Positions 23,204 through 47,410 are shown, counted from the stretch's first letter. The stretch is DNA of 64,000 nt from a virus (IMGVR_UViG_3300042508_000428), one strand, 5' to 3'. Program-made: numbers and translations. The notes: generated from the letters alone by a model not told the origin.

Positions 23204-23243
23204 AGTATGCCACCTTGACAGGAAACTGTCAGGGTGGTATGCT
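23204..23243 (+). promoter_or_regulatory. sigma70-type promoter fully contained in an 18-bp GAAA-capped hairpin
   Basis: TTGACA(23215)-N17-TATGCT; AGTATGCCACCTTGACAG-GAAA-CTGTCAGGGTGGTATGCT. Confidence 0.8.
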
Positions 23244-23280
23244 TCTATCATGTTCAACCCTCCACCTCACAGGTGATGTT

Positions 23281-30133: not shown

Positions 30134-30168
30134 TTGACAAGCGAACGGAGACACGCTATACTGTCTCC
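30134..30168 (+). promoter_or_regulatory. sigma70-type promoter of the tRNA-Ile/ncRNA/tRNA-Ser unit
   Basis: TTGACA-N17-TATACT; GGAGACA/TGTCTCC inverted repeat around the -10. Confidence 0.8.
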
Positions 30169-31605: not shown

Positions 31606-31746
31606 TTACCTTTTTTTATGGTTTCGGTTTTGCCTTTCTTCTTTTCGCGATCCTAGCGGGTCTTACAAAAGACAAAGAGGCTTTGGCAGATCGTAAACCA
31701 ATTTATCTTTCTAACAAAAAGAAGAATGTAAACAGGAGAGTATAGA

Positions 31747-32703
31747 ATGAATTTAAAGATGATTGATCTATTTGCTGGAACTGGAGCCTTTTCTTTGGCA
31801 TTTGAGTCAACAAAAAAAGTTGACGTTGTTTTTGCAAATGACATGGAAAAAACTTCAAAGCAAATTTATGATCTTAACTTTAATCACAAACTAACTCTTG
31901 CAGATATTGATAAGTTTGATGTTAATCTAATCCCTTCTCATGACATTCTGACAGGTGGCTTTCCGTGCCAACCTTTCAGTATCGCTGGCAAACAACAAGG
32001 ATTTTCTGATAAAAGATCAAACGTTTTCTGGAAAATCCTTGAGATTATCGACAAGCACTCTCCATCTTGTATTGTTCTAGAGAACGTTAAAAATCTAACT
32101 TCTCATGATGGTGGTAATACTTTCTCCGTTATCAAATCAAATCTTGTAAACAGAGGTTATCATCTTCATTACAAAGTGTTGAATACCTCAGAAATTACAC
32201 AAGTTCCACAGAATAGAGAGAGAATTTACATTGTTGGGTTTAAGCAAAAAGAAATGGCTGACAAGTTCAATCTTGATTTTCCATCTCAAACAAACCTGAA
32301 AATTGGTTCTCTATTGGAAACAAGCGTTCTAGGTAAGTATTATTATGGAAACAATGTTAAAATCTATGGGAAACTAGTCTCAGATGTTGTTAAAAAAGAT
32401 GTGATCTATCAATACCGTAGATATTATGTCAGAGAAAACAAGAGTAATGTATGTCCAACATTAACTTATAACATGGGTAGTGGCGGACATAATGTTCCAA
32501 TCTTGCTTGATTCAAACGGGATTAGAAAACTCACTCCAAAAGAGTGTTTTAATTTCCAAGGCTTTCCACAAACATATATTGTTCCATCAAATATTTCTGA
32601 CAGTGGACTTTACAAACTAGCTGGAAATGCTGTATCATACCCAGTAGTAGAACTAATCGCAAACAGAATCGTTGGTCTTTATGAAGAAACAAATGACGCA
32701 TAG
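31747..32703 (+). CDS. C5-cytosine DNA methyltransferase, M.Bsp6I-like (probable GCNGC)
   Basis: DLFAGTG, GFPCQPFS, ENVKNL, QNRERIY, YKLAGNAV; TRD YQYRRYYVRENKSNVCPTLTYNMGSGGHNVP. Confidence 0.95.
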   Translation: MNLKMIDLFAGTGAFSLAFESTKKVDVVFANDMEKTSKQIYDLNFNHKLTLADIDKFDVNLIPSHDILTGGFPCQPFSIAGKQQGFSDKRSNVFWKILEIIDKHSPSCIVLENVKNLTSHDGGNTFSVIKSNLVNRGYHLHYKVLNTSEITQVPQNRERIYIVGFKQKEMADKFNLDFPSQTNLKIGSLLETSVLGKYYYGNNVKIYGKLVSDVVKKDVIYQYRRYYVRENKSNVCPTLTYNMGSGGHNVPILLDSNGIRKLTPKECFNFQGFPQTYIVPSNISDSGLYKLAGNAVSYPVVELIANRIVGLYEETNDA

Positions 32704-32711
32704 AGGATAAA

Positions 32712-33074
32712 ATGGCAACTAGATCTTATATCGGAAAAGTTAATCAAGATCAAACTATCAGCGCTATTTATTGTCATTGGGATGGTTATCCTTCTCACAA
32801 TGGAAAAATCCTTCTTCAGAATTATGAAACAGATGATAAAGTTGATTCGTTGCTTTCGAAAGGAGATCTCTCTGTTTTAGGAGAAACAATAGATACTTGC
32901 TCATTCTATCAAGATGGATCTATCGGAGAATACAGCAATATTGATTTGTTTTTTGATAGAGGCAAGAATTGTTGGATAGAATATTATTACCTATACGACA
33001 ATGGATATTGGAAATGTTTTGATTATGATTGTGAACCAATCTCTATCGTAGAGGCAATTAAAGAGGCAGGTTGA
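32712..33074 (+). CDS. Conserved phage hypothetical protein (IYCHWDGYP)
   Basis: Motif MATRSYIG..YCHWDGYP. Confidence 0.75.
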   Translation: MATRSYIGKVNQDQTISAIYCHWDGYPSHNGKILLQNYETDDKVDSLLSKGDLSVLGETIDTCSFYQDGSIGEYSNIDLFFDRGKNCWIEYYYLYDNGYWKCFDYDCEPISIVEAIKEAG

Positions 33075-33099
33075 CAGGAACCTCCAGCTAGTGTAGACT
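33071..33099 (+). promoter_or_regulatory. sigma70-type promoter of tRNA-Leu
   Basis: TTGACA-N17-TAGACT. Confidence 0.8.
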
Positions 33100-33107
33100 A
33101 GCATCAT

Positions 33108-33191
33108 GCTCTTGTGGCGGAACAGGTAGACGCAGCAGACTTAAAATCTGCCAACTATTTAGTTATGTGAGTTCGAGTCTCACCGGGAGCA
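33108..33191 (+). tRNA. tRNA-Leu(TAA), CCA not encoded
   Basis: GCAGA-CTTAAAA-TCTGC, variable arm, T arm. Confidence 0.93.
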
Positions 33192-33536
33192 CTAAAAAGA
33201 GGTGAGTTATGAAAGCAGTAGAATTCGTTTTTGACGGCAAAGACTACTACATTCTATCTCACCGAGAACTCGGAATGAGCATTTTCGAAGGTAATGCTAG
33301 ATTTCTTTGGTTTAAACAAGCAATGAATATCAAAGAAGTTCGTATGGTTTCAAAAAGTTTGTTTGAGATCTTAAAAAATAAACACGGATCTCGTATAGTA
33401 AAAGAATGAAAGTAATTAAACTAAAAATTGATTATTTTCCAGAACCAAGAGATTGGATAAGAAAAACTTGGATATATTCTAATGGTAATAAGAGAAAAAC
33501 TTGTAAGGTAAAATTTAGAGAAGTAGATTTAGATAT

Positions 33537-33612
33537 GCCGTCGTAGCTCAGTTGGTAGAGCATCTGATTTGTAATCAGGCGGTCAGGGGTTCGACTCCCT
33601 TCGACGGCACCA
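33537..33612 (+). tRNA. tRNA-Thr(TGT)
   Basis: CTGA-TTTGTAA-TCAG, ACCA end. Confidence 0.95.
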
Positions 33613-33779
33613 ATCCAGAAGTAGCCGAAAGATTGGTTAAAATCACTTTGAATGATTGGATTGAATAGGATCCTGACCGTTAGGTAGGTTAAAGAAGGCT
33701 CAACCAGTGAGATTAGTTTTTAACAACATCAATATATGGTCCCTGTAACAAAATAACTCTTAACCGCAATCCTGGATAA
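33613..33779 (+). ncRNA. Putative structured ncRNA immediately after tRNA-Thr
   Basis: Ends pair: ATCCAG/CTGGAT and GATTG-GTTAA/TTAAC-CGCAATC; no ORF. Confidence 0.45.
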
Positions 33780-33781
33780 CC

Positions 33782-33923
33782 AACAAACACTGGAAGTAGA
33801 AAGCTTGCATTAGTTTAAAGTGGTAAATTCCCGGATTGCCGGGCGATGTAGGTTCAAATCCTACATGTTAAAAAGATTCAGGGTATCATGGAACTTGATA
33901 ATTCCGAAATCCCAGTGTTTGTT
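33782..33923 (+). ncRNA. tRNA-like element with a 4-nt anticodon loop inside a 12-bp closing stem
   Basis: AACAAACACTGG/CCAGTGTTTGTT; D-loop GG; CCCGG-ATTG-CCGGG; GTAGG-TTCAAAT-CCTAC. Confidence 0.65.
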
Positions 33924-33935
33924 CCCTTCTGTTAT

Positions 33936-33943
33936 ACTATTTA
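33936..33943 (+). promoter_or_regulatory. ACTATTTA putative late promoter element
   Basis: Intergenic, upstream of 33968 ORF. Confidence 0.6.
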
Positions 33944-33967
33944 TTATATAATGGGAGGGATCTATGA

Positions 33968-34441
33968 ATGTTAAACCTATTAGCACAAGTTGACTTAGCA
34001 AATCATGTTTCTAGCGCCGTATCAAACGGCGAAATCGACATAAACCAATTGGCGCACCTAAGTGGAGGCAATCCTATGATGATTGTTGCACTAGGTGCTA
34101 TTGCCGTTTTGGGCGGTAAAAAAGTTTGGGATTGGCTCAAACAACGACAAGAACAACAACACGAACAAAAGATGGCTGAAATTGAAGCATCAAAGGTTTC
34201 TGTTGGAACGGGACACGAACAATGTGTCGCCAAACAACAAGAACTAGAATCACAAGTTTCAGGGTTAAAAGGAAAAATCTCTGATATTGAATCAAAAGCA
34301 ACAACGGCAGAAAAGAAAGCAGAAGAAATCAAAGTCTCCAATCAAGAAACACTTGAATCAATTGAAGATGCCGTAAAGAAAGTAAAGAAGAAAGTTAAAA
34401 AACTTGAGGAGCAGGTAGAATCAACCAAGAAGGGGAAATAA
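33968..34441 (+). CDS. Membrane-anchored coiled-coil protein
   Basis: TM helix MMIVALGAIAVLGG followed by heptad coiled coil. Confidence 0.7.
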   Translation: MLNLLAQVDLANHVSSAVSNGEIDINQLAHLSGGNPMMIVALGAIAVLGGKKVWDWLKQRQEQQHEQKMAEIEASKVSVGTGHEQCVAKQQELESQVSGLKGKISDIESKATTAEKKAEEIKVSNQETLESIEDAVKKVKKKVKKLEEQVESTKKGK

Positions 34442-34444
34442 GAA

Positions 34445-35209
34445 TTGGATGAAACTCTCTTGCCAAAAGAAGCAACCTCTGCTACACTTACCAAAGATAA
34501 ACAAGGAACCGCTTGTGTTGTCAAATCTGGTGAGAAAGTTGAGATATTATCATCGGGCAAATACAGAATGCCTGATGGTTCAATCATAAGCGACATATCG
34601 GATTGCGATTTACAAAGTGGATCTCAGTTGGTTTATAGAGAAGAAGAACCAAAGGAGGAAAAATTGATCGCTATTAAAAGAGAGAAACCAAAACCAAAGA
34701 TTCATAAAACTGAAACTGCTGTCGTATTACCCACCGACACCACACCACCCATACACGACCCCACCATACCTACAATACCTGTGGTGGAATCTACCCTTAT
34801 TCCTCCAACAACAGGTAGAGATATAAACCCAGTTAACTCTGGTGTAATTGATCCAATCGTTGCTGGAGCAATCGCAACCGCTGCTATTGCCTCTGTTGTT
34901 TCTTCCGTAGCATCTTCATCGACAAAAGCAAGAAGAGCAAAGAAAATGGAAAATTCACAAAGATCGCAAGACTCACAGAAGCGGGAGCAGAAGGAAAAGG
35001 AAGAGCAGACCAAATGCAATTCCAAATCTGATGGTGTTAAGTCCTCAATCGCTATGACAGAAGAGATTGTAAATACCAGTCCAGCAAATAGAATTGAGAT
35101 CAAGGAAGATAGAGAGTTTAATAAGAGAGTTAAAGTTCTTAATGCTGAGATTATGAAACTTAATAAAGATATTAGATCAATAGAAGAAAGTCTTTCAAAG
35201 AAGAAATGA
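34445..35209 (+). CDS. Pro/Thr-rich protein with a TM-like helix
   Basis: ORF; IVAGAIATAAIASVV segment. Confidence 0.65.
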   Translation: MDETLLPKEATSATLTKDKQGTACVVKSGEKVEILSSGKYRMPDGSIISDISDCDLQSGSQLVYREEEPKEEKLIAIKREKPKPKIHKTETAVVLPTDTTPPIHDPTIPTIPVVESTLIPPTTGRDINPVNSGVIDPIVAGAIATAAIASVVSSVASSSTKARRAKKMENSQRSQDSQKREQKEKEEQTKCNSKSDGVKSSIAMTEEIVNTSPANRIEIKEDREFNKRVKVLNAEIMKLNKDIRSIEESLSKKK

Positions 35210-35238
35210 AAACAAACTAAAGAAGATTATTCGCCCAC

Positions 35239-35291
35239 TTGACACAAAAACCCTCCTCTGCTATAGTTAGGTATATAGAGAGGAGGGTTTT
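35239..35291 (+). promoter_or_regulatory. sigma70-type promoter with 13-bp inverted repeat covering downstream RBS
   Basis: TTGACA-N17-TATAGT; AAAACCCTCCTCT/AGAGGAGGGTTTT. Confidence 0.8.
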
Positions 35292-35294
35292 GCT

Positions 35295-35755
35295 ATGCTT
35301 GTCGTATGTAAAAAGTGTAAAGTCGAACACGATTCGAGAGACATTAACTCCAACGGATTTTGTGTTTGGTGTGAACAGAGAGAATCTGTTGAGATGGTTA
35401 GGTTTCAGCAGGATCAAAAGTATTTCTATAACTACTTTCATAAACAATTTGACTGGAAATCTCTGCCTTGCTATGCTAAGGGTATGAGAACGAGGTAGAT
35501 ATGAGCAAATATTACTGGTCTACAAAGTCATCGGTAAAGCACAATCTTGGCACCAACATTTCTAATTTGGAATCGTTGTTCTGCCAAGAATCTGAAAGAA
35601 TGTTGTCAACTGATTTGATTGAGGTGGAAGGTCCGAATATGATTTCGTGTCCTCCACATTTTATCAAGCTCATTCATGCCCTTAAGTTGTTAAGGGAAGT
35701 TGAGAATTCAATTGACAATGGCGAGTTCTTTTCTCTGGAAGAGAAGTCTGATTAA
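35295..35755 (+). other. Two small ORFs (35295-35498 zinc-finger; 35501-35755)
   Basis: GAGGAGG RBS; CKKC..CVWC. Confidence 0.65.
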
Positions 35756-35764
35756 ACAATTAAC

Positions 35765-36123
35765 GGGTCTGAAATGGTATCGATCGGGTAGAGTTTTATG
35801 ATTATGCAGGACGATGGGGAGCGAGGCATCGTAAAAACGCTTAAATGTTTAATTGCCAACGACAACGTTGCTTTTGATTACGCCGTAGCGGCTTAAATCA
35901 CGGAGTCTCCAAACACTCTGTAAAATAAGTTTGGATAGGTTGGAATCTTATCGAAAACAAGATTCATCGGCTTTTCTAACTGGTTTTGCCCTGAATAAAT
36001 CAGTATGAAGTCCCTGTAACCCAGGTGTTTTGTCAAGGGTAGGTTGGGTGCTTGACTATTCCTGTGAATGAGTAATCATAAAAACTATGTGAGACGCGGG
36101 TTCGACTCCCGCCAGATCCACCA
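35765..36123 (+). ncRNA. ssrA: tmRNA (one-piece), tag ANDNVAFDYAVAA at 35855-35896
   Basis: GGGTCTG..TGGTATCGA 5' end, GCGGG-TTCGACT-CCCGC T arm, CAGATCC-ACCA 3' end with G3:U, tag ending in AA-stop. Confidence 0.95.
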
Positions 36124-36136
36124 AGCGGAGAATAAA

Positions 36137-36788
36137 ATGCCTTATATCAGATTGACAACTTATACTGCGAAAGAGTTGAGAGAAAAGTTGTTGGAAGTTG
36201 TTCATGAGATTAGTCTTGCGAATGAAGATGAAATCTATTCTGGTTCTCTTGACTTCTCATCGACAGATGAAGTTAGAGGCAGTATCGCTTATGATATGGA
36301 GATGCATTATGATTTCTCTGTTAGTGAAAAAGAACTACGAGAGAACTTGGAATTTGTTCCTCCCCATGTGATTCATACATACAATACTTATCCAGAAGAT
36401 TGTGCTAGAGATAATGATCGTTATTGGGAAATTGTAAATGATATGAAACAGGATATATTTTCTGATGATATTTCACCTTTCTTCCCAAAGAAGGATGAAC
36501 CAAGCGAGGAAAAAGATGAACCAAAGGAAGGCGATTAGAATTGTTAATTCCAAGAACTTTATTTGGATGGAAGGTATGCTCGCCTACATTCCTGTTGAGG
36601 ATGAATGGCATCCCATTCGTCTAACTCCTCCACTTGTGGATAATTGGAATTCTAAACAAATTAAAAACTGCTTGCCAGATATTGACGACCCTGCTACTAT
36701 TGGGTGTCTGCTTGTGCTGGCAGGAGAAGAAATTGATCTTGATAAGATCGAAGAAATGTTGGAACCAGAATCGGATATGATTGCTTAA
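36137..36788 (+). other. Two hypothetical ORFs (36137-36538; about 36516-36788)
   Basis: GGAG RBS after tmRNA; starts adjusted. Confidence 0.6.
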
Positions 36789-36931
36789 CAATGAAAGTTT
36801 ATCATCTTAAAGTTGAAATAGACAATACATATATTCCCTCTCGTTCTTCTTGTAAGTATATGCTTTATTACAACTGGCTGACTGACGGGAAAATCTGGAA
36901 AACTAAAGCAGTCGCAGTTATTGGATGAAAA

Positions 36932-37339
36932 ATGGCAAACAGAATAGAACTTACCAGAAGAAACGAGCGACTCTTTGGATTCGCAAAGAGAATGGCGGAA
37001 CTTTCCAGTTACGGGAAGTTTCGTCATGGTGCTGTTTTGGTTCACCATGGTGTTGTCCTTAATGCTTCCCACAACAAGGATAAGCCTTGTTCGTTTGGAA
37101 GCAGATTCCGTTGTAGATCAAAGGGTCAGGCAACTCTCCATGCTGAACTTGGGGCAATCCTCAATATGCCCCGTGAGTCAACCGAAGGTTCTGATATTTA
37201 TGTGGTGAGAGTGAATTACGAGAATCAATACAGAAACTCCAAGCCCTGTCCAATGTGTCAAGAGGCAATGAGATTCTGTGGAGTCAAGAGAGTATTTTAC
37301 TCAACTGAATACGGGCACTTTGAAGTGATGAAGCTATGA
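36932..37339 (+). CDS. Zinc-dependent cytidine/dCMP deaminase-family protein
   Basis: HAE and PCPMC zinc motifs. Confidence 0.9.
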   Translation: MANRIELTRRNERLFGFAKRMAELSSYGKFRHGAVLVHHGVVLNASHNKDKPCSFGSRFRCRSKGQATLHAELGAILNMPRESTEGSDIYVVRVNYENQYRNSKPCPMCQEAMRFCGVKRVFYSTEYGHFEVMKL

Positions 37340-37599
37340 GAACAATTGAATTGCAAGTTGAAATTTTTTATTATAACAAAATCAGAAACCTTCGTTATGA
37401 ATGGTTTGGCTTAAAGAATCAGGCAAAAAGGGTTAGGGTTTGGGTAGAGTTGGATGAAGAAATCTTATAAGAATAAAATTGAGTTATATATTCGATATGG
37501 TTCAGATAATTCAATATCTAAGGTGTGGAATATCACAAAAGCAGAAGGTTTATTTCCATACAAAAAGAATGAATGCTTCTATCTAGAATAGGAAACACC

Positions 37600-40500
37600 A
37601 TGAAAACCATTCCCTGCTCTTACAAAGATTGCGACCAAAGACGAGTTCACTTTTCTATTCCAGATGAAACCCGCTCTCACCGAATGGTTGAGGTCAAAGA
37701 TGATCATGAAGGCGATGCTTATTGCTCCTTGACTTGTGCTATTGTGGATGGTAAGATGAGTGTCAAGAACGAACAACCGAAACATTCTCCAACTTGTGGT
37801 TGGCATAAAGATTGGCATGATTGTAGTTGTGGAGCGTTTGACAAGAAACCTTCCAAGTGGTACGATTGTGCCAAGTGTGATGCTGGTTATGAAGATCAGC
37901 AATGCACATGTAAGGAATCAAAATGAGTGGCGGACACTTTAACGGAAACGGATACATCTATTATCAAGTATATCAGTTTGCTGATGAACTCGATAATGAA
38001 ATCGAACGGAATAACACTAAGGATGAATGGGGTTATGCTCCTGAACTTAGTGAAGAAACCCTAAACTACCTTCGACAGAAAGTTGTTGAACTCCGCAAGA
38101 TCGCAGAAGAAATGAGACACATTGATTATCTCTATTCTGGCGATCATAGTGAAGAGTCCTTTATGGAAAGGATGAATGAATCAAATGCCTGATATGAACC
38201 CAGAAAATAACCGCGATACATTTCAAGGTCGTGGAGTTCAAATTCAACAATACAAAGACGCTCTTGAAAAGACCAAAAAGAATATGATGGAAATGGAAAG
38301 AGATTTGTATTTGAAGATTAATGTTCTTGAAGAACAAAACGAAGAGATGAAAGAACTTCTCAAAATCATTTATGAAACTGATTGTTTGCGTGATTGGGCT
38401 TTTGAGGATGATGATGGAAATTCTATTGCCGATAAGGTTCGCAAGATTGTGAAGGACTAAGAATGAAGTTTATTTTTTTGGACAGGGATGGTAACGAAAC
38501 CTACAAAGGGTGGAAATATCCATCACAATCAACGCCTATGGAGTTTCCTTCTTTGGAAAAATTTGTCGAGTGGTCGGTAGAGGTTGAACTTCCAAGACAC
38601 ACATTCATTCCACCTAACGGATATGCTGGCGGATATCAAAATAAAACTCCTTACTGGATGGTTTATTGCGAGAGTGGTTATGACTGATGAAAAAGGAATC
38701 AGATCCAAACACTTAAAGGAGTGTTCTTGGTATCAAGATGACACAACTTGCGATTGCGATCTTTTTAGTCCATTAGGGATCTACGCTCCTTACATCCCTT
38801 TACAAATCAGCAAAATTGAAATCACCAACGACAAGGAATCAAAATGAGCAAAAAATTCGTATGCAAAAGCGACACGATTTTTGATGAATTCATTATCATT
38901 GAAGCCCTCAAACAAAGTATTCTTTTTGAAAAACCTGCCCATGAAATTCTGAACATTACCAAAAATGACCTGAAACGATTCATTCTAGAAATGGATGGAA
39001 TTGTAGAGCAGGAGCAAGAGGAATCAAAATGAGTGCTTATTCTTACAATGCTGGTTATCACAGAGGTCTGAACACTGAATACCACAACGTTCCCGTTGAA
39101 ATACTATACAAGCAATGGGCTGATGGAGTAGACATTCTTTTAATTCCTGTATCTTTTGACCCTGTTGCTTTTGAGGAAGGTTATGCAGACGGCGTGCGTG
39201 ATTATCTAAAAAATAGAAACTGCGTTGAAGATTAGACAAGAAGTAAAAATGAAACCCTACGAATTAATTGACGGAAAACTGATCATCAGAGATCCTGAAA
39301 TCATCCAGAAGTTGGATCACCTTTCGGAAGAAGAACTGAAGCAAGTTGCCGAGATCATGAGAAAAGATCTTGATGAGATGAAGAACAATCCGGAGAAATC
39401 AAATGCCTAACTGGTCTGATGATGAGGGAAGAAGTTATTTTGGTAAAGTAGAGTGCAAACGATGCTTACAAGACTTTGATTACGATAAGAAAACAGGAGA
39501 AGTACCAATTCATAAATGTATTGGTGGAGAACTCTGGACTTCTGCGTATGTAAATGGTGTGTGGCATTATCCAGTCAAAGTGAGGTCAAAATGAACATTG
39601 ATCAATTCCTACAACAAAACCAATTGACACTTATCAAATCATTTCCTGTTCTTTGGAGAGCTTGGGCTTGTGATTCTGAATGGTACTTGACGCAGAACTC
39701 AAACGGTGATAAGATTCTTGTTGCAAGCGATCATGGCGTACCTCGCGTTGGTAGTCCAGAAGAGCTTGAAGAACGAATTGAATATTATAAAGAGATCACA
39801 AAAGAATCAGAAGAGATTCTAAAAGAGTTAGAGACAAAATGAAATTCCCAATCCGTCGTGAGAAAGCAGGAGTCATTGGCGATAAACCTATGTGGGTTTG
39901 TTGCTATTCGTGCTATTTACACGCAGACGAGTCTCTGCTAAGATTGCTGTGGCAAGTGATCACGGAATACAAGAGCGATAATTATTTGGTGGGTTAAGAA
40001 TGTTAGGGCCACAAATTTGCGTAAAATGTAGAGCGGAATATAATTGTGAAAAGATTAGCGAAGATGTGGTGCGTTGGTTTTGTCCCAAGTGCGGAGAAAC
40101 AGATAGCCAAGATTATGCTTTGACAATTCCAGAAGAACTTTATGAAGAGATTTATGGAACCAAGTGGATTCTATAATAAGGAGAAACATGGCTGATATAT
40201 CAAAATGCCGTGGAACTGATTGCCCAATGAAAGATAAGTGTTGGCGATATTTGGCCCCATCCAGCAAATGGCAAGCATACTTTCATGCTGAAAGTGGATT
40301 AAATCAAGACAAGAACGAATGTAAAAACTTTATCGAAGCAAAAGAAAATCAAGTGGTCCAAATTAAGGGAAATTTATTCAAATGATTAATGTCTTCTTAT
40401 TAAGAATTGATCGGGAAGGAAGTAAGCTGTGGTTTAGAAACAGTCTCTTACATAGAGATTACGGTAAGCCTGCTATTATTTATTCAGATGGTAGAAAGTG

Positions 40501-40823
40501 GTGGTGTAAAGATGGGGGCGTTATTGGATACGAATACAAAGGCAAGGACTAAGATCATTGTGCTCAAAGTTAGGTTAGAAAAACCAGTTGAATTGTTTCG
40601 TTTATCCACTGGTGAATCATTTGTTGAAAATGGAAGAGTTTATTACATTGATTACAGAGATCAATTTGCACGAAAAGTCTTTACCAAAGATTATGAAAGC
40701 GATCATTTTTCTCCATCATACACTATGTTTGAATTTCAAGAAGTAGTTCCAGTAAAATCTTGGATATATCTTGATGATGCATATCGTGATTGGAAGAGAA
40801 TAAGAAGAGATAAACAGACTTGA
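37600..40823 (+). other. Dense run of about 12 small hypothetical phage ORFs, many Cys-rich
   Basis: Tightly packed + strand ORFs with recurrent AGGAATCAAAATG starts. Confidence 0.6.
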
Positions 40824-40848
40824 CAGAGTAGAAGAGAGGTGCCATACT
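40820..40848 (+). promoter_or_regulatory. sigma70-type promoter of the HNH gene
   Basis: TTGACA-N17-CATACT. Confidence 0.6.
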
Positions 40849-40882
40849 ACCTACCTACTTGTGAGTGAGATACGGGGATGTT

Positions 40883-41401
40883 ATGGACACACTGGTTTTA
40901 AGCACAGCATATCAGCCTATGCGCTATGTTGACTGGAAAGAGGCATTTTGCCTTTGGTTCTCTGGTCGAGTTGAAGTCATTGAGTTCCACAAAGACAAGG
41001 TGGTAAACACCATCAGTGAAACCTTTAATGTTCCTTCAATTGTCCGCTTTGTAAAGGGTGTGATTAGAAGAAGCAAACAATCGAAGTCAGCAAAATTCAA
41101 TAGAGCAAATGTATTGCTCCGCGACAATAGTGAATGTCAGTATTGCCGTGTTAAATTGGAACGAAAGAACTTTACATTTGATCATGTCCTGCCTGTTTCT
41201 CAAGGCGGAAAGACAAATTGGAAGAATATTGTTGCTTGTTGTGTTCCTTGTAATCAAAAGAAAAAAGATAGAACACCTTATCAATCAGGAATGAAACTTA
41301 TTCGAGAACCTTATGTTCCGGATAGTTTTGAAATACTAAACAAGTCCAGAGCCAATATAACTTGGCCGGAAGAATGGAAGGATTACATAGGTGATTTATG
41401 A
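40883..41401 (+). CDS. HNH endonuclease (McrA-like)
   Basis: CQYC, FDHVLPVSQGGKTNWKNIVACCVPCNQKK. Confidence 0.92.
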   Translation: MDTLVLSTAYQPMRYVDWKEAFCLWFSGRVEVIEFHKDKVVNTISETFNVPSIVRFVKGVIRRSKQSKSAKFNRANVLLRDNSECQYCRVKLERKNFTFDHVLPVSQGGKTNWKNIVACCVPCNQKKKDRTPYQSGMKLIREPYVPDSFEILNKSRANITWPEEWKDYIGDL

Positions 41402-43144
41402 CGATGGTTCACAGAGAAGGATTCATTTCAGCAGATATTAGTGAAATGTGGGCAGGTTATTATGCTCACTTGGTTACGGAATGGAAGGATGGAAAAAGTG
41501 AAGAGCGATCCATCCCTTGTCGAACGAAAGAAGAAGCAGAAGAGATTGTTGAAAAATTTCTAACAGGAGAATACAATGCCGAGGGTTAAAGCAGTTAAAC
41601 AAAAGAAACTTACAGTTGCCGAACTCAAACGGCGAATGACAGAGGGAGCAGTATTGACCATGGTTGATTTCCATGGAACTCCAGTTAAAAAGCGAAGAGT
41701 TGTTGCTGGCATCTCAACCACTTTTGTTAAATTTAGTGGGGATGAAATTAAAGAAGGTCAATATTCATATTTGAATTGGCCGAAATCAACCGAGTTGACA
41801 GGAAATGACGAAGGGTTTACAATCTCTCTCAAGTATGGAGCAGTCCGATATGTCTGGGGAGAACCAAAGACCGAAGACAACGAAAACCCTGAGAATCAGG
41901 AATAGCGAACCAAAAGATCGCAAAGATATTCTCATTATAGAGAAAGTTTGGTATTGGAAAGAACTCACTCATAGAGATCCAGAAACTGGTCCTGCTTACT
42001 CTTATTGTTCATTTTATAAAGAAACTCTTGATGTTTGTACAGAGTTTCACACATACTACGAATTAGGATTTCAAGTAAGGGAACCAAAATGAGAGAAGAA
42101 CTCGAAAACAAATTGTATGAAAAGTATCCCAAACTCTTTGCCCAAAGGAACCTTCCTGATACGATTAGTCTTATGTCGTATGGGATTGGTGTTGGTGATG
42201 GTTGGTATAACATTATGAATGTCCTTTGCTGGACGATTCAAAATCATGTTGATTACCAGCAGAGAAAGAATCCAGAATACAAACAGGTTGAGTTCTTCCA
42301 GATCAAGGAAAAGTTTGGTGGTCTGCGAGTTTATACCAGCGGTGCCGATGAAGTAGTTAATAACCTAATCGTTTTTGCCGAGAACATGGCAATTGTTACT
42401 TGCGAACAATGCGGAAACCCTGGGAAGATTAGATACACCAGTTGGAATACTTGTCGGTGTGATGAATGTCAGAAGAAGTATTGCGATCAAAGAGGAATCA
42501 AAGATGAAGAAGAAGATGAACAAGATGACTGATACTGATTCAGTTTTCGCAGAAAAGGTAGTGAAACGAAAGAAACCAAAGAAGCAGATTGTTTCTAAGG
42601 AATCGAAGTCCAGCGGAGACAAAGAAGATGATCTAATCGAAATCTATGATGTTGACGATTTGGATGTTGATCTTGGTTATTATCGTGATGTTGCTTCGTC
42701 CATGCGAGATTGGTAAAAGGTAGTAGACATATAGTGGGATAGTACTACTCCACCCCACTACTACACCCCTATACCCCTGCCCGCATATACGAGAGAGAGG
42801 GCGATATGTCAAATTATTCCGTGGCAAACAATATTCATGGTATAAAAGAAAAAATCGAAAACGGAATAACTATCTTGTATGATGAATACGAATATGAGGT
42901 TGGAGACATTGTTTTAACCGCTCCACATGTTTGGTACATGTATAAAATTTTATCTGGTTATAAAACAGCAAGTAATGAAGTATTATTTGTAGTCTCGTCT
43001 AAGGAAAAACCTATTGAATCATCATCACATATGATTCGGGATCACAGATACTCTTATAAAATAGTTGCTCTGGAGAATCCAAGAATTGTTCTTGATTATT
43101 TAAGATATGAAGAGTTAATACCTTTAAAACTTAATAAAGATTAG
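41398..43144 (+). other. Small hypothetical ORFs incl. 41576-41905, 42089-42532 (QIKEKFGGLRVY conserved phage motif), about 42504-42716 and 42806-43144
   Basis: ORF track. Confidence 0.6.
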
Positions 43145-43318
43145 AACTTAATAAAGATTAATAGTTCTATTTATTTGATTGTTGAATACTTTATTACTTA
43201 ATAATCATTCTCGATAAAGTAGGCATTTAACTTCCTCAGCATATTCCGCTGAAAGCATATGTGACACTGAAAAAAAAGATCTTTATGCCTCACTTTGTAT
43301 ATGAGGGACTGAAAGCCA

Positions 43319-43976
43319 AACGGCAGACTGAGAGGTCTTGACGCCAGCAAACAGATCGGGTAAGATACCTAAGTCAAAGCGAGAGACCTGCGCGGTTTCT
43401 CGAAACGGCAAACGGCAAACCGGGGAACGCGAGACTGCGAGGTCTTGACAACCGTTCCAAGTTGTGGTAAGCTACTAAGGTCAACGCGGGAAACGGGCTT
43501 CGCGCTCTGAAACCGCAAACGCTCCTTGAAAACCGAGTAGATTCGCAAACGTGATACTGCGAGGGCTTGACAACCGAATCTGGTTGTGGTAGACTACTAA
43601 ACGCGGAATGGTTCCGCAAGGAGGCGAAATGTCGATTACGAATGACGCACTGAAGGGTATTGTTCTTGGTCTGACGATTGCCAAATTGGTTATTCTGCTG
43701 AACGGCTAACTGAACCGAAACGTGAGACCGCGAGGTATTGACAGCGGTTCCGAGTTGTGGTAAGATCCTGACTGTGACGGCGACCTGAGCGGTTGCCGAG
43801 ATTAAGAAACGCGGTACTGAGAAACGCGATACTGCGAGGGCTTGACAACGGTTCGAAGTTGTGGTAAACTCCTGAATGTGAGCGAGCCTGAGCGGTTCGC
43901 GAAACGACGGAGAGAAGCAGAAATCGGAAACGTGATACTGCAAGCTCTTGACAAGCGAATCTACTTGGTGTACAAT
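43319..43976 (+). promoter_or_regulatory. Array of six tandem sigma70 promoters, each with a conserved 19-nt upstream element
   Basis: TTGAC(A/G) at 43338, 43445, 43567, 43738, 43842, 43948, all N17 to TAAGAT/TAAGCT/TAGACT/TAAGAT/TAAACT/TACAAT. Confidence 0.9.
43629..43709 (+). CDS. 26-aa hydrophobic peptide MSITNDALKGIVLGLTIAKLVILLNG
   Basis: AGGAGG RBS 4-5 nt upstream, directly downstream of promoter P3. Confidence 0.6.
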   Translation: MSITNDALKGIVLGLTIAKLVILLNG

Positions 43977-43988
43977 CCCTAAGTCGGC

Positions 43989-44038
43989 GGTGAGCTTCGC
44001 GTTCACCCACTCCGCATCGGATCTTTGATAACTGAATA
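43989..44038 (+). promoter_or_regulatory. boxB-like hairpin plus rrn-type boxA-like antitermination element
   Basis: GGTGA-GCTTCGCGT-TCACC then GATCTTTGATAACTGAATA. Confidence 0.65.
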
Positions 44039-44166
44039 ACGATTGCGAGCACAGAGTTGCTCTGCAAAGATGATGGACTGCCGTGGTCTGCGAAGTCACG
44101 AGACCTTCCACATCGCAATCAAGACGACACGCAATAAGTGCGTGACGTAGAGTGAGTACGATTAAT

Positions 44167-44240
44167 CCGCCTTTAGCTCAGTTGGATAGAGCATCTGCCT
44201 TCTAAGCAGAGGGTCGCAAGTTCGAGTCTTGCAAGGCGGG
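44167..44240 (+). tRNA. tRNA-Arg(TCT), CCA not encoded
   Basis: TCTGC-CTTCTAA-GCAGA; CCGCCTT/AAGGCGG. Confidence 0.93.
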
Positions 44241-44282
44241 CCGAGTAAGTGTGAAGCAAACCCCTAACCATGCGAGGTTACA

Positions 44283-45098
44283 ATGAGCACGAACACCAAG
44301 ATCGGAAATTTCCTCTACACGAACGCTGACTTGCCGTTCTATTCGCAAGTCCTGTCGATCCTGAACGAAAACCCCAAGGGTGCGTCGTTCATCACTGTTG
44401 CGGGTAAACCGCAAATCATGTCGCAGTTCAACAACGATGTTGCTCGTTCGCAACAGAAGGTCAAGTCGATCCTGTCGAGTCTGCGTATGCGTTCGGTTAT
44501 CTTTGAGACTCAGCAACCCGGAAGTTCGTTCTCGGTTTACAAGATTGCGGATAAGGATGTGGCCTTGACGCTAATCTCTGAGGGTGGTAAGATTGTTGAA
44601 AGGTTGGTGCAGCGTACCGCTGACTGCGCTAATACTGAAAAGGTTTCGGCGGTTGTTTCCAATATCAATACCAATACCAAGAAGGTGAATACCATGGCTA
44701 CCAAGACTGCTACCAAGAAGGCTCCTCGTTTGTTCGTTAACCCTGAGACCAGCAAGGTTGAGCCGTTTGGCGCTGGTCGTCCGTCCAAGGCAAAGTTGGC
44801 GTTCGAGTGCAACGCCGATGGTCAGTATCTCAATCCGCAGGCGGCGCTTGCGTTCGCTCAACAGGGTGGCAAGTCGGAAGATAAGCTGACCAAGGCTGAG
44901 TTGCTCGATCTGCTCCGTAAGGTTCGCGCCGAGCGTGACGAGGCAATCGCCGCTCGCGACACTCTCGCCGGTGTCCTCGGTTCGCTGAATACCGCTTCGG
45001 TTGACGCTGAAGCGGATTCGGATGACGGCGATGACCTCGATCTCGATGCTGAGTCGGTCGATGCCGATGACGAGATTGAGGCGACCGACGCCGAGTAG
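44283..45098 (+). CDS. Early protein with GRP (AT-hook-like) motif, coiled coil and highly acidic tail
   Basis: GAGG RBS; strongly biased GC-richer codon use; tail DAEADSDDGDDLDLDAESVDADDEIEATDAE. Confidence 0.8.
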   Translation: MSTNTKIGNFLYTNADLPFYSQVLSILNENPKGASFITVAGKPQIMSQFNNDVARSQQKVKSILSSLRMRSVIFETQQPGSSFSVYKIADKDVALTLISEGGKIVERLVQRTADCANTEKVSAVVSNINTNTKKVNTMATKTATKKAPRLFVNPETSKVEPFGAGRPSKAKLAFECNADGQYLNPQAALAFAQQGGKSEDKLTKAELLDLLRKVRAERDEAIAARDTLAGVLGSLNTASVDAEADSDDGDDLDLDAESVDADDEIEATDAE

Positions 45099-45104
45099 TC
45101 AAAC

Positions 45105-45386
45105 GGTGGCTTGCGATAGACCCCAAACAGAATGGGGTTCAATCAACGGTTTCCCGCTGTAGGGAAATGCAGTTGGACGCAAGCCACCATTCGCGGTGTG
45201 GTTCCACCGATTGGAAGTGAACCCATCCCGCTGTGGTTGAACAGCACAGCAGGCGACGGTTACGCCGATTGGAAGCTAACCCATCCAACCGTGGATGACA
45301 AGCACGGCTACTTGCACAATCGTCTAAATGGAAAGTGCGCGTGAATATACGCGTGATGCGGGTTCGACTCCCGCTTGTGCAAGCCA
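45105..45386 (+). ncRNA. Putative multi-domain ncRNA with two CGATTGGAA-loop hairpins and a 3' tRNA-like domain
   Basis: 11-bp stem 45105-15/45178-88; repeated hairpins; T arm GCGGG-TTCGACT-CCCGC; 6-nt anticodon loop. Confidence 0.7.
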
Positions 45387-45408
45387 ATCAATAGACAGAG
45401 GTTTCACA

Positions 45409-45954
45409 ATGCTGTTCTGTTTCATTCACAAAGATACCAAGCGGTTCAAACAGTTCTGGATTGAACAGGTAAACCTTAGCGAAAGCATTTACGAATCCGA
45501 AAACCCCAGCGATGTTGCGTTGGTTCGCAAAGTTCAACAAGAAAATGCAAGGCTATTTGATAATCAGGTAAGGGAGTTGCTTCAGCGTGGTTGGGTTCGC
45601 CCATAACACCCAATCAATAGACGGAGGTTCCATATGTTTGATGCAAGCAAGATGACGATTGCTGAGGTTATGCAAAAGGCGCAGGAACACATGATCGCCC
45701 TGCGACAGGAAATCGAAGAGACGGAAGTCAAGTGTAACGATATTAGTGATCGTTGTATGGAACTTGACGATATGGAAAATCGCGATGATGGCGAACTCCA
45801 ACGAATGGACATTCGTCGGTGGGTTATGAACGGCAAACTGGATGACCTCAACGATCAACTGGCCGATACACATCGGGTTGTCGAAATCTTCAGCAAGGTG
45901 GTTTACAATACATCGAATATTCAAGATGTCATCGACGCCATTCGCTCTGTGTAG
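45409..45954 (+). other. Two small early ORFs (45409-45606; 45634-45954 coiled coil)
   Basis: GAGG/GGAGG RBSs. Confidence 0.7.
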
Positions 45955-45970
45955 TGAATAGGTGTTCAAT

Positions 45971-46046
45971 TTCCCGATAGCTCAGTTGGTAGAGCGAGTG
46001 ACTGTTAATCACTTTGTCGTGTGTTCGATTCACACTCGGGGAGCCA
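45971..46046 (+). tRNA. tRNA-Asn(GTT)
   Basis: AGTGA-CTGTTAA-TCACT, GCCA end. Confidence 0.95.
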
Positions 46047-46057
46047 AACGAATAAAT

Positions 46058-46133
46058 GGATCAGTAGCTCAGTCGGTAGAGCAGCGGACTCTTAATCCGT
46101 AGGTCGTGGGTTCGATCCCCTCCTGATCCACCA
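46058..46133 (+). tRNA. tRNA-Lys(CTT)
   Basis: GCGGA-CTCTTAA-TCCGT, ACCA end. Confidence 0.95.
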
Positions 46134-46227
46134 GATACGAATAAACAATAGACGGAGGGAACAAATGATCGTTATTGATTGGCAACTTCGTTCTTGGATC
46201 TACGACGAAAGTTTCTGGGACTAACAA

Positions 46228-46455
46228 ATGCAGGAGGTCATCATGTATGATGTTCACACGAATGAAGAACTGATTGATTTTCATAACAAGCATGATCCTT
46301 TGTTCGCTAGACTGCTACGGGAAACTGAAGTAGAAAAGGACGAGAACAAGTTTCAGATTGGTGTTGCCCTTGTGTCTCTCGTTCTGTCGGGCAAGGTAAA
46401 AATCATTCAGAGTCCACAGGGCGAACTTCTATTCGAGCACCAACTCCCCAACTGA
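46228..46455 (+). CDS. Small hypothetical early protein (true start may be the second Met)
   Basis: GGAGG RBS. Confidence 0.6.
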   Translation: MQEVIMYDVHTNEELIDFHNKHDPLFARLLRETEVEKDENKFQIGVALVSLVLSGKVKIIQSPQGELLFEHQLPN

Positions 46456-46655
46456 TTGAGGTAAATGATGGATGCAACTAAAGTGGTGAAGCAGATCAAG
46501 GACAAGGTTCGTGAAACAGTTGTTCAGGAAAAGGAAGACTGGACTAAAGCGGTTTCTGAATACAAGAAAAGGCAGGAACTTCTAGCGAAGTCGCAAGAGC
46601 AAAGAGTCATTGGTTTCAAGTGGTAGGAACAAACGGGACTAACAATCCCACAATC

Positions 46656-46727
46656 GGCCTTGTCGTCCAAAGGTTAGGACGAGAGACTTTCAATCTCTAA
46701 ATCCGGGTTCGAGTCCCGGCAAGGTCA
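46656..46727 (+). tRNA. tRNA-Glu(TTC), CCA not encoded
   Basis: AGAGA-CTTTCAA-TCTCT; GGCCTTG/CAAGGTC. Confidence 0.92.
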
Positions 46728-46765
46728 CCGATAATGAATAAACAATAGACCGAGCGGAGATACGA

Positions 46766-47356
46766 ATGGATGTTTACACAGAGGCAGAACTGAGAGAGTC
46801 GTTTGCAGACTTCAAGGACTATGCACTGAAAATTGAGAAACGAAACAAGAGGCTTGGATTGAAAAGCCGATTGCCCAACATGCCAGAGGAAGTTAGCGAA
46901 AACATCGCCAAGTTTATCGTTCAGAATCATATGAATGATCAGACTGCGTTGTGGCCCAAGGGCACGAAGGGAAAGGTCAAACTTCCAGGCGATCTCCGTT
47001 CAGATTCATTCGGCAGGCTGGAAGTCAAGTGTTTCACTTCAACTGGCCCGATCTCATTCGGTCCAACCGAAGCATGGGATACGCTACTGTTCCTTGATGC
47101 AACAGATTGGCGGAATGATCGTTTCGTTATGTATGGTGTTTCGCTTGCAAACAATGACCCGCTATGGGAAGCCGTGCAGATTAGCAAGAAGCAAACGTAT
47201 GGCGATCAATGCAAAGCTCAACGTCGCCCACGCATTGGATGGGGTGCGCTGAGTCCACAGATCACATCCAACTGCACAAAGGTATTTGATGGAACGTTTG
47301 ATGAAGTGTTTGTGAATATTCAGCAGACTCAACAGGGGCATAGTTCAGTTGGTTAG
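46766..47356 (+). CDS. Type II restriction endonuclease, R.Bsp6I-like (probable GCNGC)
   Basis: SRLPNMPEEVSE, GD..LEVK PD-(D/E)xK core, SFGP..WDTLLFL, QTYGDQ..RRP, all paralleling R.Bsp6I motifs as recalled. Confidence 0.75.
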   Translation: MDVYTEAELRESFADFKDYALKIEKRNKRLGLKSRLPNMPEEVSENIAKFIVQNHMNDQTALWPKGTKGKVKLPGDLRSDSFGRLEVKCFTSTGPISFGPTEAWDTLLFLDATDWRNDRFVMYGVSLANNDPLWEAVQISKKQTYGDQCKAQRRPRIGWGALSPQITSNCTKVFDGTFDEVFVNIQQTQQGHSSVG

Positions 47357-47410
47357 AGCATCGCTCTGATAAGGCGAAAGTCGGTGGTTCAAGTCCACCT
47401 GCCCCTACCA
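47334..47410 (+). tRNA. tRNA-Ile(GAT)
   Basis: TCGC-TCTGATAAG-GCGA arm, AGGGGCA/TGCCCCT, ACCA; overlaps the last codons of the endonuclease ORF. Confidence 0.92.

What the first reader, a model, noticed from the sequence alone, without database searches (positions are those of the whole stretch)
31747..47356. Split phage-encoded type II restriction-modification system (Bsp6I-like, GCNGC)
Seen: a C5 methylase at 31.7 kb whose target-recognition region (YQYRRYYVRENKSNVCPTLTYNMGSGGHNVP) closely parallels M.Bsp6I (GCNGC) as I recall it. Some 14 kb away, in the early module, is a PD-(D/E)xK protein with R.Bsp6I-like motifs (NMPEEVSE, EVK, SFGP..WD.L.FL, QT..DQ...RRP). The two differ in base composition and are not adjacent. 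GCNGC sites are common in this window (e.g. GCTGC/GCAGC near 11872 and 44610). Known: chloroviruses use RM pairs to degrade host DNA, but cognate REase plus MTase pairs are unusual in lytic bacteriophages. Inference: pre-methylated phage DNA enters and the early endonuclease destroys unmethylated host or competitor DNA, a self/non-self weapon built from an RM system.
Basis: partly seen in the sequence, partly recalled or inferred. Interest (0 to 1): 0.8.

Follow-up and report, generated by a model that had tools for sequence, protein, structure and literature searches.

The report
Split Bsp6I-type restriction-modification pair in phage
A large uncultured phage carries both halves of a GCNGC-type restriction-modification system, whose nearest relatives sit side by side in giant viruses of eukaryotes, at two sites 14 kb apart in its early region, so the pair must act in trans if it is active.

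Summary
Both genes are real. Window 31747-32703 encodes a full C5 cytosine methyltransferase. It is 47% identical to the methylase next to a Bsp6I-family endonuclease on a Bacillus plasmid, and its target-recognition stretch is almost the same. Window 46766-47356 encodes a divergent Bsp6I-family PD-(D/E)xK endonuclease (profile-profile 98%, PADLOC REase_II E 4.5e-8, PvuII/NhoI-like fold). The local Pfam RE_Bsp6I model does not detect it.

In 61 of 63 related viral loci, many from giant-virus MAGs, the two homologues are adjacent, and two loci carry them fused. Both trees place the phage genes in the same clade. Five related phage records lack both genes. The methylase is a clean one-gene insertion. 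The 14 kb between the genes is ancestral phage backbone.

Both genes lie in sigma70-promoter units. The endonuclease sits in a tRNA operon and its stop codon lies inside tRNA-Ile.

An active trans-acting pair that cuts unmethylated host or rival-phage DNA is the best reading, but it is untested.

Another note of this scan (e1-5491921) describes a look-alike convergent pair on other DNA.

The parts
31747..32703 (+). M gene: 318-aa C5 cytosine methyltransferase with a Bsp6I-partner-type target-recognition domain. The predicted target is GCNGC.
   Evidence: PF00145 1.7e-78 over residues 3-309. 47% identical to the methylase at L001:4008-4955, with a near-identical recognition stretch. Motifs FAGTG, PCQ, ENV, QNRER and GN are visible. 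AGGAGA lies 8 nt before the ATG.
31606..32711 (+). Extent of the single-gene insertion that brought the methylase (141-nt leader plus gene), relative to related phage G002.
   Evidence: The flanking genes 31390-31605 and 32712-33074 match G002 104536-104742 and 104747-105103, which are directly adjacent there. blastn synteny agrees.
46766..47356 (+). R gene: 196-aa Bsp6I-family PD-(D/E)xK restriction endonuclease. The catalytic candidates are D76, E86 and K88.
   Evidence: hhalign 98%, E 1.6e-13 against the Bacillus Bsp6I-family enzyme. PADLOC REase_II 4.5e-8. AF2 pLDDT 90, best matches NhoI and PvuII at Z 6-7.5. Invariant residues. GGAG lies 7-8 nt before the ATG.
46656..46729 (+). tRNA-Glu(ttc), ending 36 nt before the R start codon.
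   Evidence: ARAGORN; Rfam tRNA 67.4 bits.
47334..47410 (+). tRNA-Ile(gat). Its first 23 nt hold the last codons of R, and the only R stop codon (TAG 47354-47356) lies in the D-loop.
   Evidence: ARAGORN; Rfam 68.9 bits starting at 47334; sequence read. The same C-terminal ending is kept in population variants.
43338..43976 (+). Array of sigma70-like promoters (TTGACA, 17-nt spacer) at the head of the tRNA/R transcription unit.
   Evidence: No plus-strand terminator-like site was found between 43976 and 48251.
30134..30162 (+). Nearest strong sigma70-like promoter upstream of the unit that holds the methylase (tRNA-Ile(tat), tRNA-Ser, two ORFs, M).
   Evidence: TTGACA-17-TATACT, 11 of 12 positions.

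Best explanation
The phage carries a complete type IIP restriction-modification system of the Bsp6I kind. It consists of an m5C methylase and a PD-(D/E)xK endonuclease, both predicted to read GCNGC. The two genes belong to one clade of R-M pairs that is otherwise found, adjacent, in giant viruses and other aquatic viral contigs. In this phage they sit at two separate sites of the plastic, tRNA-rich early region and so must work in trans. Both are predicted to be transcribed by host RNA polymerase from sigma70-type promoters soon after infection. The inferred mechanism is as follows. Phage DNA arrives methylated from the previous cycle and is kept methylated by the methylase. The endonuclease cuts any unmethylated GCNGC DNA in the cell, meaning the host chromosome and co-infecting phages that lack the methylase. 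The phage's own genome has shed about half of its GCNGC sites, which lowers the cost of incomplete methylation.

Shown here: the identity of both genes, their pairing in relatives, their common origin, their absence from sister phages, the site depletion and the promoter context.

Inferred: enzymatic activity, GCNGC specificity, expression timing and the target of cleavage.
For: Gene identity.

The two genes form a pair:
- 61 of 63 related viral loci have the two genes within -55 to 547 bp of each other (median 26 bp), and 39 of these are convergent.
- L053 and L057 carry them as one fused ORF. Fused-length relatives of about 500-600 aa appear.
- In the R tree the phage gene sits in a 16-row clade (SH-aLRT 99). 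In the M tree it sits in a 17-row clade that holds all 16 of those rows (SH-aLRT 96).

The genes look intact:
- Every invariant residue of the family is present.
- Population variants are full length.
- Both genes have Shine-Dalgarno sequences.
- The exact proteins were seen on 13-16 contigs from several sources, up to 179,912 bp. This argues against an assembly chimera.

Recent gain:
- Three close relatives and two complete distant relatives lack both genes, with a positive control.
- The methylase is a clean insertion between two genes that are adjacent in G002.

Site avoidance:
- The synonymous-shuffle z score for GCNGC is -5.2 in this phage and -0.5 to +1.2 in three relatives.
- In aligned orthologous DNA of equal GC, this phage has 0.48-0.49 times the GCNGC of each relative (Fisher p 0.003 against G002). 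That is the lowest or second lowest of ten composition-matched classes.
- Both the GCWGC and GCSGC forms are reduced.

Early expression: the promoter pattern occurs 28 times against 1.16 expected, including sites upstream of both units.

Precedent: chlorovirus and marseillevirus R-M systems are used offensively (PMC7253447).
Against: - No biochemical or methylome data exist.
- The GCNGC assignment rests on homology to a database-named 'Bsp6I family' pair, not on a characterised enzyme I could align. Related methylases are known to read GCWGC, GCSGC or GCCGC (PMC10734518).
- The endonuclease is only about 29% identical to the Bacillus enzyme over 61% of its length, and it misses the local Pfam model.
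- GCNGC depletion is moderate, ranking 12th of 55 palindromes. AGCT, ACGT and GTAC are more depleted. A host isoschizomer or a BisI-type methyl-dependent enzyme could also cause it.
- Two of the three relative-by-relative Fisher tests are not significant (p 0.05 and 0.11).
- Promoters are consensus matches only.
- The endonuclease ORF has no stop codon of its own before tRNA-Ile, which could limit its expression.
- IMG/VR labels the record 'provirus', so a lytic lifestyle is not proven.
Confidence: 0.6

Rival explanations
1. Only the methylase matters. It is a solitary anti-restriction methylase that shields the phage from a host GCNGC endonuclease. The endonuclease gene is a silent, poorly expressed or decaying passenger.
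For: Solitary methylases are far commoner in phages than full systems: 143 solitary methylases against 9 systems in 831 genomes (PMC4176335). The R ORF lacks its own stop codon and ends inside a tRNA. It has atypical GC. GCNGC avoidance fits pressure from a host enzyme.
Against: All family-invariant and catalytic residues are intact. The confident fold covers residues 4-182. Population variants keep the reading frame open. A ribosome-binding site is present. Both genes derive from one paired clade, so the gain was of a system and not of a methylase alone.
Confidence: 0.17
2. The pair serves a temperate or selfish lifestyle. It stabilises a prophage by post-segregational killing, or protects a lysogen from other phages, as R-M systems do in prophages and plasmids.
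For: IMG/VR classes this record and relative G001 as 'provirus'. R-M density is 8-fold higher in prophages than in sequenced phages (PMC4176335). Bsp6I-type pairs sit on small Bacillus plasmids.
Against: The record is estimated to be 37% complete, and the exact proteins occur on a contig of 179,912 bp, so this is a large virus with a tRNA array. All genes are on one strand. A replication module, GroEL, an endolysin and a dense set of early promoters are present, and I met no integrase in the ORFs I scanned. A complete relative has direct terminal repeats. I did not search specifically for lysogeny genes.
Confidence: 0.08
3. The two genes are not a matched pair in this phage. They arrived separately, and the endonuclease cuts a site that the methylase does not protect, so it would act as a homing-type or general nuclease.
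For: The genes are at separate sites with ancestral backbone between them. Their GC contents differ (34% and 47%). T4-type phages keep nuclease genes in tRNA clusters (my own knowledge: T4 SegB).
Against: Both genes fall at the base of the same clade of adjacent pairs. A mismatched active endonuclease would cut the phage's own DNA. The depletion is of GCNGC, which is the methylase family's predicted site.
Confidence: 0.1
4. Assembly artefact: giant-virus fragments were joined to a phage contig.
For: The nearest relatives of both genes are in giant-virus MAGs.
Against: Each gene is embedded between phage genes or phage tRNAs, with tight junctions. The identical proteins recur on 13-16 contigs from NCBI, JGI, ENA and Logan.
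Confidence: 0.02

Closest known systems
Bsp6I restriction-modification system (Bacillus; represented here by the pair on B. altitudinis plasmid pTM1, L001)
   Same: The methylase is 47% identical and has an almost identical recognition stretch. The endonuclease shares the N(M/F)PE.ISE, GD...E.K, SF.P.E and QT.GDQ...GRRPR motifs. It also hits the same PADLOC model.
   Different: The endonuclease is far diverged: about 29% identity over 61% of its length and no hit to Pfam PF09504.16. The genes are 14 kb apart rather than 100 bp apart and co-directional. The carrier is a large phage, not a small plasmid.
Adjacent R-M pairs of Nucleocytoviricota (GVMAG loci L003-L020), and the published chlorovirus and marseillevirus R-M systems (PMC7253447)
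   Same: These are the closest sequence relatives: R up to 50% and M up to 69% identical, in the same clade in both trees. They are virus-borne systems used offensively against host or competitor DNA.
   Different: The giant-virus pairs are adjacent, mostly convergent, and often carry Rho_N/SAP or low-complexity extensions. The phage copies are bare domains and are split. The published giant-virus systems read other sites (GATC) and belong to other families.
PvuII and the BisI family (NhoI, Eco15I)
   Same: They are the best structural matches to the predicted fold: Z 7.5 for NhoI and 6.2 for PvuII, over 112-125 residues. BisI-family enzymes also read GCNGC (PMC11347163).
   Different: Sequence identity is only 5-15%. 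BisI enzymes need methylated GCNGC, whereas pairing and fusion with a GCNGC-type methylase implies the opposite dependence here.
Phage T4 host-DNA breakdown (EndoII/EndoIV with hmC-protected phage DNA) and T4 SegB in the tRNA cluster (my own knowledge, not tested here)
   Same: It is a functional analogy: an early nuclease spares modified phage DNA and cuts unmodified DNA. T4 also keeps a nuclease gene inside a phage tRNA cluster.
   Different: The enzyme families are unrelated. Protection here would come from site-specific m5C rather than full base replacement.

Membership tests
Bsp6I-family type II restriction endonuclease (Pfam RE_Bsp6I, PF09504) | Significant match to the family's sequence model | tested here: inconclusive
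   The local PF09504.16 model gives no hit at E<=1, and the six-frame search of the record finds none. That model gives a PGAP-named Bsp6I-family enzyme only 27.8 bits against a cut-off of 25. A precomputed annotation lists PF09504.17 for this protein and its 12 listed homologues, without a score. PADLOC PDLC03476 gives E 4.5e-8 over residues 93-157. hhalign of the 13-sequence profile against the Bacillus enzyme gives 98%, E 1.6e-13 over 112 columns.
Bsp6I-family type II restriction endonuclease (Pfam RE_Bsp6I, PF09504) | PD-(D/E)xK catalytic motif aligned with that of the family | tested here: met
   GD76 ... E86-V-K88 aligns with GGD ... E-S-K of the Bacillus enzyme. These residues are invariant in 13 homologues.
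Bsp6I-family type II restriction endonuclease (Pfam RE_Bsp6I, PF09504) | PvuII-like restriction-endonuclease fold (the published assignment for Bsp6I, cited in PMC2441816) | tested here: met
   AF2 pLDDT 90.1, pTM 0.85. The top 17 VIA rows are PD-(D/E)xK nucleases, all but two of them restriction endonucleases, led by NhoI (Z 7.5, rmsd 3.9, 125 aligned) and PvuII (Z 6.2, rmsd 3.3, 112 aligned). The Z values are middling, so this supports the assignment without proving it.
Bsp6I-family type II restriction endonuclease (Pfam RE_Bsp6I, PF09504) | Cleavage at GC^NGC, blocked by m5C | not testable with these tools
   This needs enzyme assays. Lineage-specific GCNGC depletion gives only indirect support.
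Type II R-M operon (adjacent cognate R and M genes) | R and M genes adjacent in one locus | tested here: not met
   14,062 bp of ancestral phage backbone separates them. The relatives meet this feature in 61 of 63 loci.
Type II R-M operon (adjacent cognate R and M genes) | R and M co-occur and share an evolutionary history | tested here: met
   Both genes are present here and both are absent from five related phage records. Clade placement is congruent. Fused forms exist.
C5 cytosine DNA methyltransferase (PF00145), Bsp6I-partner type | Full-length match with catalytic motifs I, IV (PCQ), VI (ENV), VIII and X | tested here: met
   PF00145 1.7e-78 over profile positions 1-323 of 324. TIGR00675 1.1e-85. 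M.HhaI 2.1e-49 over the full length. The motifs can be read.
C5 cytosine DNA methyltransferase (PF00145), Bsp6I-partner type | Target-recognition domain like that of the methylase partnered with a Bsp6I-family endonuclease | tested here: met
   Residues about 220-275 are almost identical to L001:4008-4955.
C5 cytosine DNA methyltransferase (PF00145), Bsp6I-partner type | Methylates GCNGC | not testable with these tools
   No characterised M.Bsp6I or M.Fnu4HI sequence was available to align. A search with the recognition domain alone did not reach the multispecific Bacillus phage methylases.
Offensive viral R-M (chlorovirus / marseillevirus type) | Endonuclease expressed early or packaged; degrades host or competitor DNA while viral DNA is methylated | not testable with these tools
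   Only the promoter context was examined: sigma70-like sites lie upstream of both genes.

The most novel reading that the evidence does not exclude
The endonuclease is held in check by RNA processing. Its ORF is wedged between tRNA-Glu and tRNA-Ile in a strongly promoted tRNA operon, and it has no stop codon before the tRNA. Release of tRNA-Ile by RNase P would therefore leave a non-stop message. The product of that message would be tagged for degradation by tmRNA, and the phage encodes its own tmRNA at 35765-36123. Only unprocessed precursor could yield full-length enzyme. This would give a built-in delay or ceiling on the toxic half of a trans-split R-M pair, in place of the controller proteins or promoter logic of bacterial systems.
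Probability: 0.12. Interest if true: 0.8.

Novelty: new variant of a known kind. Interest (0 to 1): 0.55.

Why it matters
Complete R-M systems are nearly absent from sequenced phages: 9 in 831 genomes (PMC4176335). No record among 50,697 deposited phage genomes has a detectable relative of this endonuclease.

This case shows three things.
- A large, probably virulent phage can hold a full system with its halves 14 kb apart. Surveys that require adjacency would count it as one solitary methylase and one solitary endonuclease.
- Phages and giant viruses of eukaryotes draw on the same pool of R-M pairs.
- Gaining the system coincides with the loss of about half of the cognate sites relative to sister phages.

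If the pair is active, it is a bacterial-virus counterpart of the chlorovirus and marseillevirus weapons. It would also be a tractable case for asking how a toxic nuclease is regulated without operon linkage.

Tried and rejected
- Local Pfam and NCBIfam scans of the endonuclease gave nothing. PHROGs gave nothing. A search of PDB sequences gave nothing.
- A six-frame search of the record with PF09504 found nothing, and its controls were also silent, so it is uninformative.
I could not fetch the 179,912-bp contig or the contigs of the metagenomic homologues.
- A pattern scan of 185,579 prokaryote species genomes with the viral-clade profile found no relative. The patterns were specific to the viral clade, so this does not show absence from bacteria.
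- tblastn with the recognition domain alone did not reach the multispecific GCNGC methylases of Bacillus phages, so there is no link to a characterised enzyme.
- PHROG scans of the flanks of the three most divergent loci (L053, L061, L062) did not show whether they are phage or giant virus.
- Pawlak et al. 2005 on Bsp6I mutagenesis is not held.
- An assembly chimera was considered and rejected.
- The idea that inserted DNA split an adjacent pair was rejected, because most of the intervening genes are present in relatives G001 and G002, in largely the same order.
- The GC-rich character of the endonuclease region is partly explained by the tRNA cluster. Several other GC-rich genes are conserved in relatives, so GC alone does not mark the gene as foreign.

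Full report
**What the window is.** Almost all long ORFs lie on the plus strand. The window encodes a DnaE-type polymerase, a GroEL-like chaperonin and an endolysin. It also holds 15 tRNA genes and a tmRNA. It is part of a 77,468-bp IMG/VR record estimated to be 37% complete. No deposited phage is close: the polymerase is 29% identical to its best match. Earlier notes of this scan call it an uncultured T4-like lake phage, and I did not test that label. The pattern TTGACA-N17-TANNNT occurs 28 times against 1.16 expected. Twenty-six matches are on the plus strand, all between 2 and 49.2 kb. This marks that stretch as a region read from sigma70-type promoters, which are presumably early. Both genes of the finding lie inside it.

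**The methylase.** ORF 31747-32703 is a full-length C5 cytosine methyltransferase: PF00145 at 1.7e-78 and TIGR00675 at 1.1e-85. It has a good ribosome-binding site. A tblastn search with the endonuclease led to two small Bacillus plasmids. On B. altitudinis pTM1 a gene annotated 'Bsp6I family type II restriction endonuclease' is followed by a 315-aa methylase. The phage methylase is 47% identical to that methylase. This is the basis for predicting GCNGC. It is homology to a database-named pair, not to an enzyme I could check, and related methylases are known to read GCWGC, GCSGC or GCCGC (PMC10734518).

**The endonuclease.** ORF 46766-47356 gave no hit in the local Pfam, NCBIfam, PHROGs or PDB-sequence searches. 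Four lines of evidence still place it in the Bsp6I family.
- A word-indexed search found 12 homologues at 35-49% identity, all with a precomputed PF09504 label. Their alignment shows invariant R35, N38, S44-E45, G75-D76, E86, K88, the FGP..E.W block and RRPR.
- That profile matches the Bacillus Bsp6I-family enzyme at 98% probability, E 1.6e-13, and the GD...ExK motifs are aligned.
- The PADLOC model PDLC03476 scores the Bacillus enzyme at 5.7e-93 and the phage protein at 4.5e-8.
- An AlphaFold model (pLDDT 90) is most like NhoI and Eco15I of the BisI family and PvuII, at Z 6-7.5. This agrees with the published Bsp6I-PvuII relationship cited in PMC2441816.

The local Pfam model is narrow. It gives the Bacillus enzyme only 27.8 bits, so the miss is not evidence against membership. 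A full profile search finds 956 cluster representatives at E<=0.001, so the family is large in metagenomes. No deposited phage genome has a relative at E<=0.01.

**Are the two genes a pair?** A scan of IMG/VR with the endonuclease profile returned 63 loci, many named as giant-virus MAGs. In 61 of them a homologue of the phage methylase (45-69% identical) lies within -55 to 547 bp of the endonuclease homologue. Thirty-nine are convergent and 19 co-directional. In L053 and L057 the two are one fused ORF, and fused-length relatives appear. L013 has an NCLDV major capsid gene 2 kb away, and L040 has an mRNA capping enzyme, so at least part of this clade is truly from giant viruses. In maximum-likelihood trees rooted on the Bacillus pair, the phage endonuclease sits near the base of a 16-row clade (SH-aLRT 99). 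The phage methylase sits near the base of a 17-row clade that contains all 16 of those rows (SH-aLRT 96). The two phage genes therefore come from one lineage of linked pairs.

**How they came to be split.** Phage records related through GroEL (77-87% identical: G001-G003), plus two complete distant relatives, lack both genes. In G002 the orthologues of 31390-31605 and 32712-33074 are directly adjacent (104536-104742 and 104747-105103). The methylase with its 141-nt leader is therefore a clean single-gene insertion. Most genes between 33.4 and 46.5 kb have orthologues in G001 or G002, in largely the same order. The 14-kb spacer is thus ancestral backbone and not DNA inserted into a pair. The endonuclease lies in a tRNA array whose gene order is shuffled among relatives. 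Either the pair entered once and one gene moved, or each gene entered separately from the same donor lineage. The methylase now has the phage's low GC (34.1%), whereas the endonuclease has 47.2%. In the donor clade the two genes have similar GC to each other.

**Site statistics.**
- The window has 53 sites. Observed/expected is 0.50 by maximal-order Markov, the lowest of 16 XYNY'X' patterns, and 0.65 by base composition. Neither gene contains a site.
- Synonymous-codon shuffling over the whole record gives 72 observed against 92.4 expected (z -5.2). Three relatives give z from -0.5 to +1.2.
- In aligned orthologous DNA of equal GC, this phage has 27 sites against 55 (G002), 28 against 57 (G001) and 11 against 23 (G003). 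That is the lowest or second lowest of ten composition-matched classes, with Fisher p values of 0.003, 0.05 and 0.11.
- Both the GCWGC and GCSGC forms are reduced.
- The effect is moderate. GCNGC ranks 12th of 55 palindromes, behind AGCT, ACGT and GTAC.
- It has more than one possible cause: the phage's own endonuclease, a host isoschizomer, or a methyl-dependent BisI-type enzyme that would attack methylated GCNGC (PMC11347163).
- The RM-bearing viral loci show a weak version of the same bias (O/E 0.84).

**Expression context.**
- The endonuclease lies 2.8 kb downstream of five to six tandem TTGACA-17 promoters (43338-43976). No plus-strand terminator-like site follows before 48251. The unit runs tRNA-Arg, ORF, tRNA-Asn, tRNA-Lys, small ORFs, tRNA-Glu, R, tRNA-Ile.
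- tRNA-Glu ends 36 nt before the R start codon.
- The R frame has no stop codon until TAG 47354-47356, which lies in the D-loop of tRNA-Ile; the tRNA begins at 47334.
- Population variants keep this ending.
- The methylase lies in a unit headed by the promoter at 30134.

**Interpretation.** The best reading is an intact, trans-acting Bsp6I-type R-M pair expressed early, with phage DNA protected by m5C and by site loss. The endonuclease would be directed at unmethylated DNA in the infected cell. Whether the main target is the host chromosome (the chlorovirus model) or co-infecting phages (the marseillevirus model, PMC7253447) cannot be decided here. Sister phages carry 1.8-2.7 GCNGC sites per kb and no methylase, so they would be vulnerable. 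The rivals are listed with their odds: a solitary protective methylase with an inert endonuclease, a prophage-stabilising role, mismatched specificities, and an assembly chimera.

**Novelty.** The kinds of genes are known. Four things are unusual.
- The carrier is a phage. Only 9 systems were found in 831 phage genomes (PMC4176335).
- The nearest kin are in giant viruses.
- The arrangement is split.
- The endonuclease is embedded in a tRNA operon.

One tool (look-up of encoding contigs) was closed, so the longer contig of this phage could not be examined.

Noticed in passing
window 47334-47356: The endonuclease ORF has no stop codon of its own. Its last seven codons and its TAG lie inside tRNA-Ile(gat), so 5' processing of the tRNA would leave a non-stop message. 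A 46-aa ORF conserved in G002 (33406-33546) likewise ends 10 nt inside tRNA-Thr.
   Followed up: partly
window 35765-36123: Phage-encoded tmRNA (Rfam 111 bits) with the tag ANDNVAFDYAVAA. It is conserved in relatives G001 and G002, where G001 has the tag ANDNVETFNYALAA.
   Followed up: no
window 2169-49204, plus strand: There are 26 plus-strand matches to TTGACA-N17-TANNNT, against about 1 expected on both strands together. None lies on the plus strand beyond 49.2 kb, where GC falls to about 0.29-0.31 over much of the remaining window. This looks like the boundary between the early and late regions.
   Followed up: partly
whole record (G000): AGCT is the most avoided palindrome in this phage (68 observed against 216 expected by synonymous shuffle, z -13.6). 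It is not among the eight most avoided in relatives G001 or G002, which instead avoid TGCA, or ATAT and GGCC. This suggests that the relatives face different host restriction repertoires.
   Followed up: no
L053:9974-11443 and L057: Endonuclease and methylase homologues are fused into single ORFs of 489 and 527 aa. The profile search also found relatives of about 500-600 aa with the endonuclease domain at either end (P0186, P0200, P0202, P0246, P0251).
   Followed up: partly
L005 about 11237-12270 and L019 about 1234-2330: In two related viral loci (L005 from a giant-virus MAG) the methylase gene is interrupted by about 1 kb at residue 74, inside the catalytic PCQ motif. The position is typical of an intein or a self-splicing intron.
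   Followed up: no
P0008, P0012 and many methylase homologues: The metagenomic homologues of both genes often carry N-terminal Rho_N/SAP/HeH modules or low-complexity tails. The phage copies lack them.
   Followed up: no
window 22090-24510 and 44283-45098: Genes with GC of 0.48-0.54 sit in a genome of GC 0.37: an ATPase, a protein matching a PHROG labelled HNH endonuclease, and a 271-aa ORF of unknown function. All have counterparts in relatives, so high GC here does not by itself mark recent import.
   Followed up: partly
Pfam PF09504.16 (tool library): The local RE_Bsp6I model scores a PGAP-named Bsp6I-family enzyme at only 27.8 bits (cut-off 25) and misses the whole viral clade. The precomputed labels come from version 17.
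   Followed up: partly
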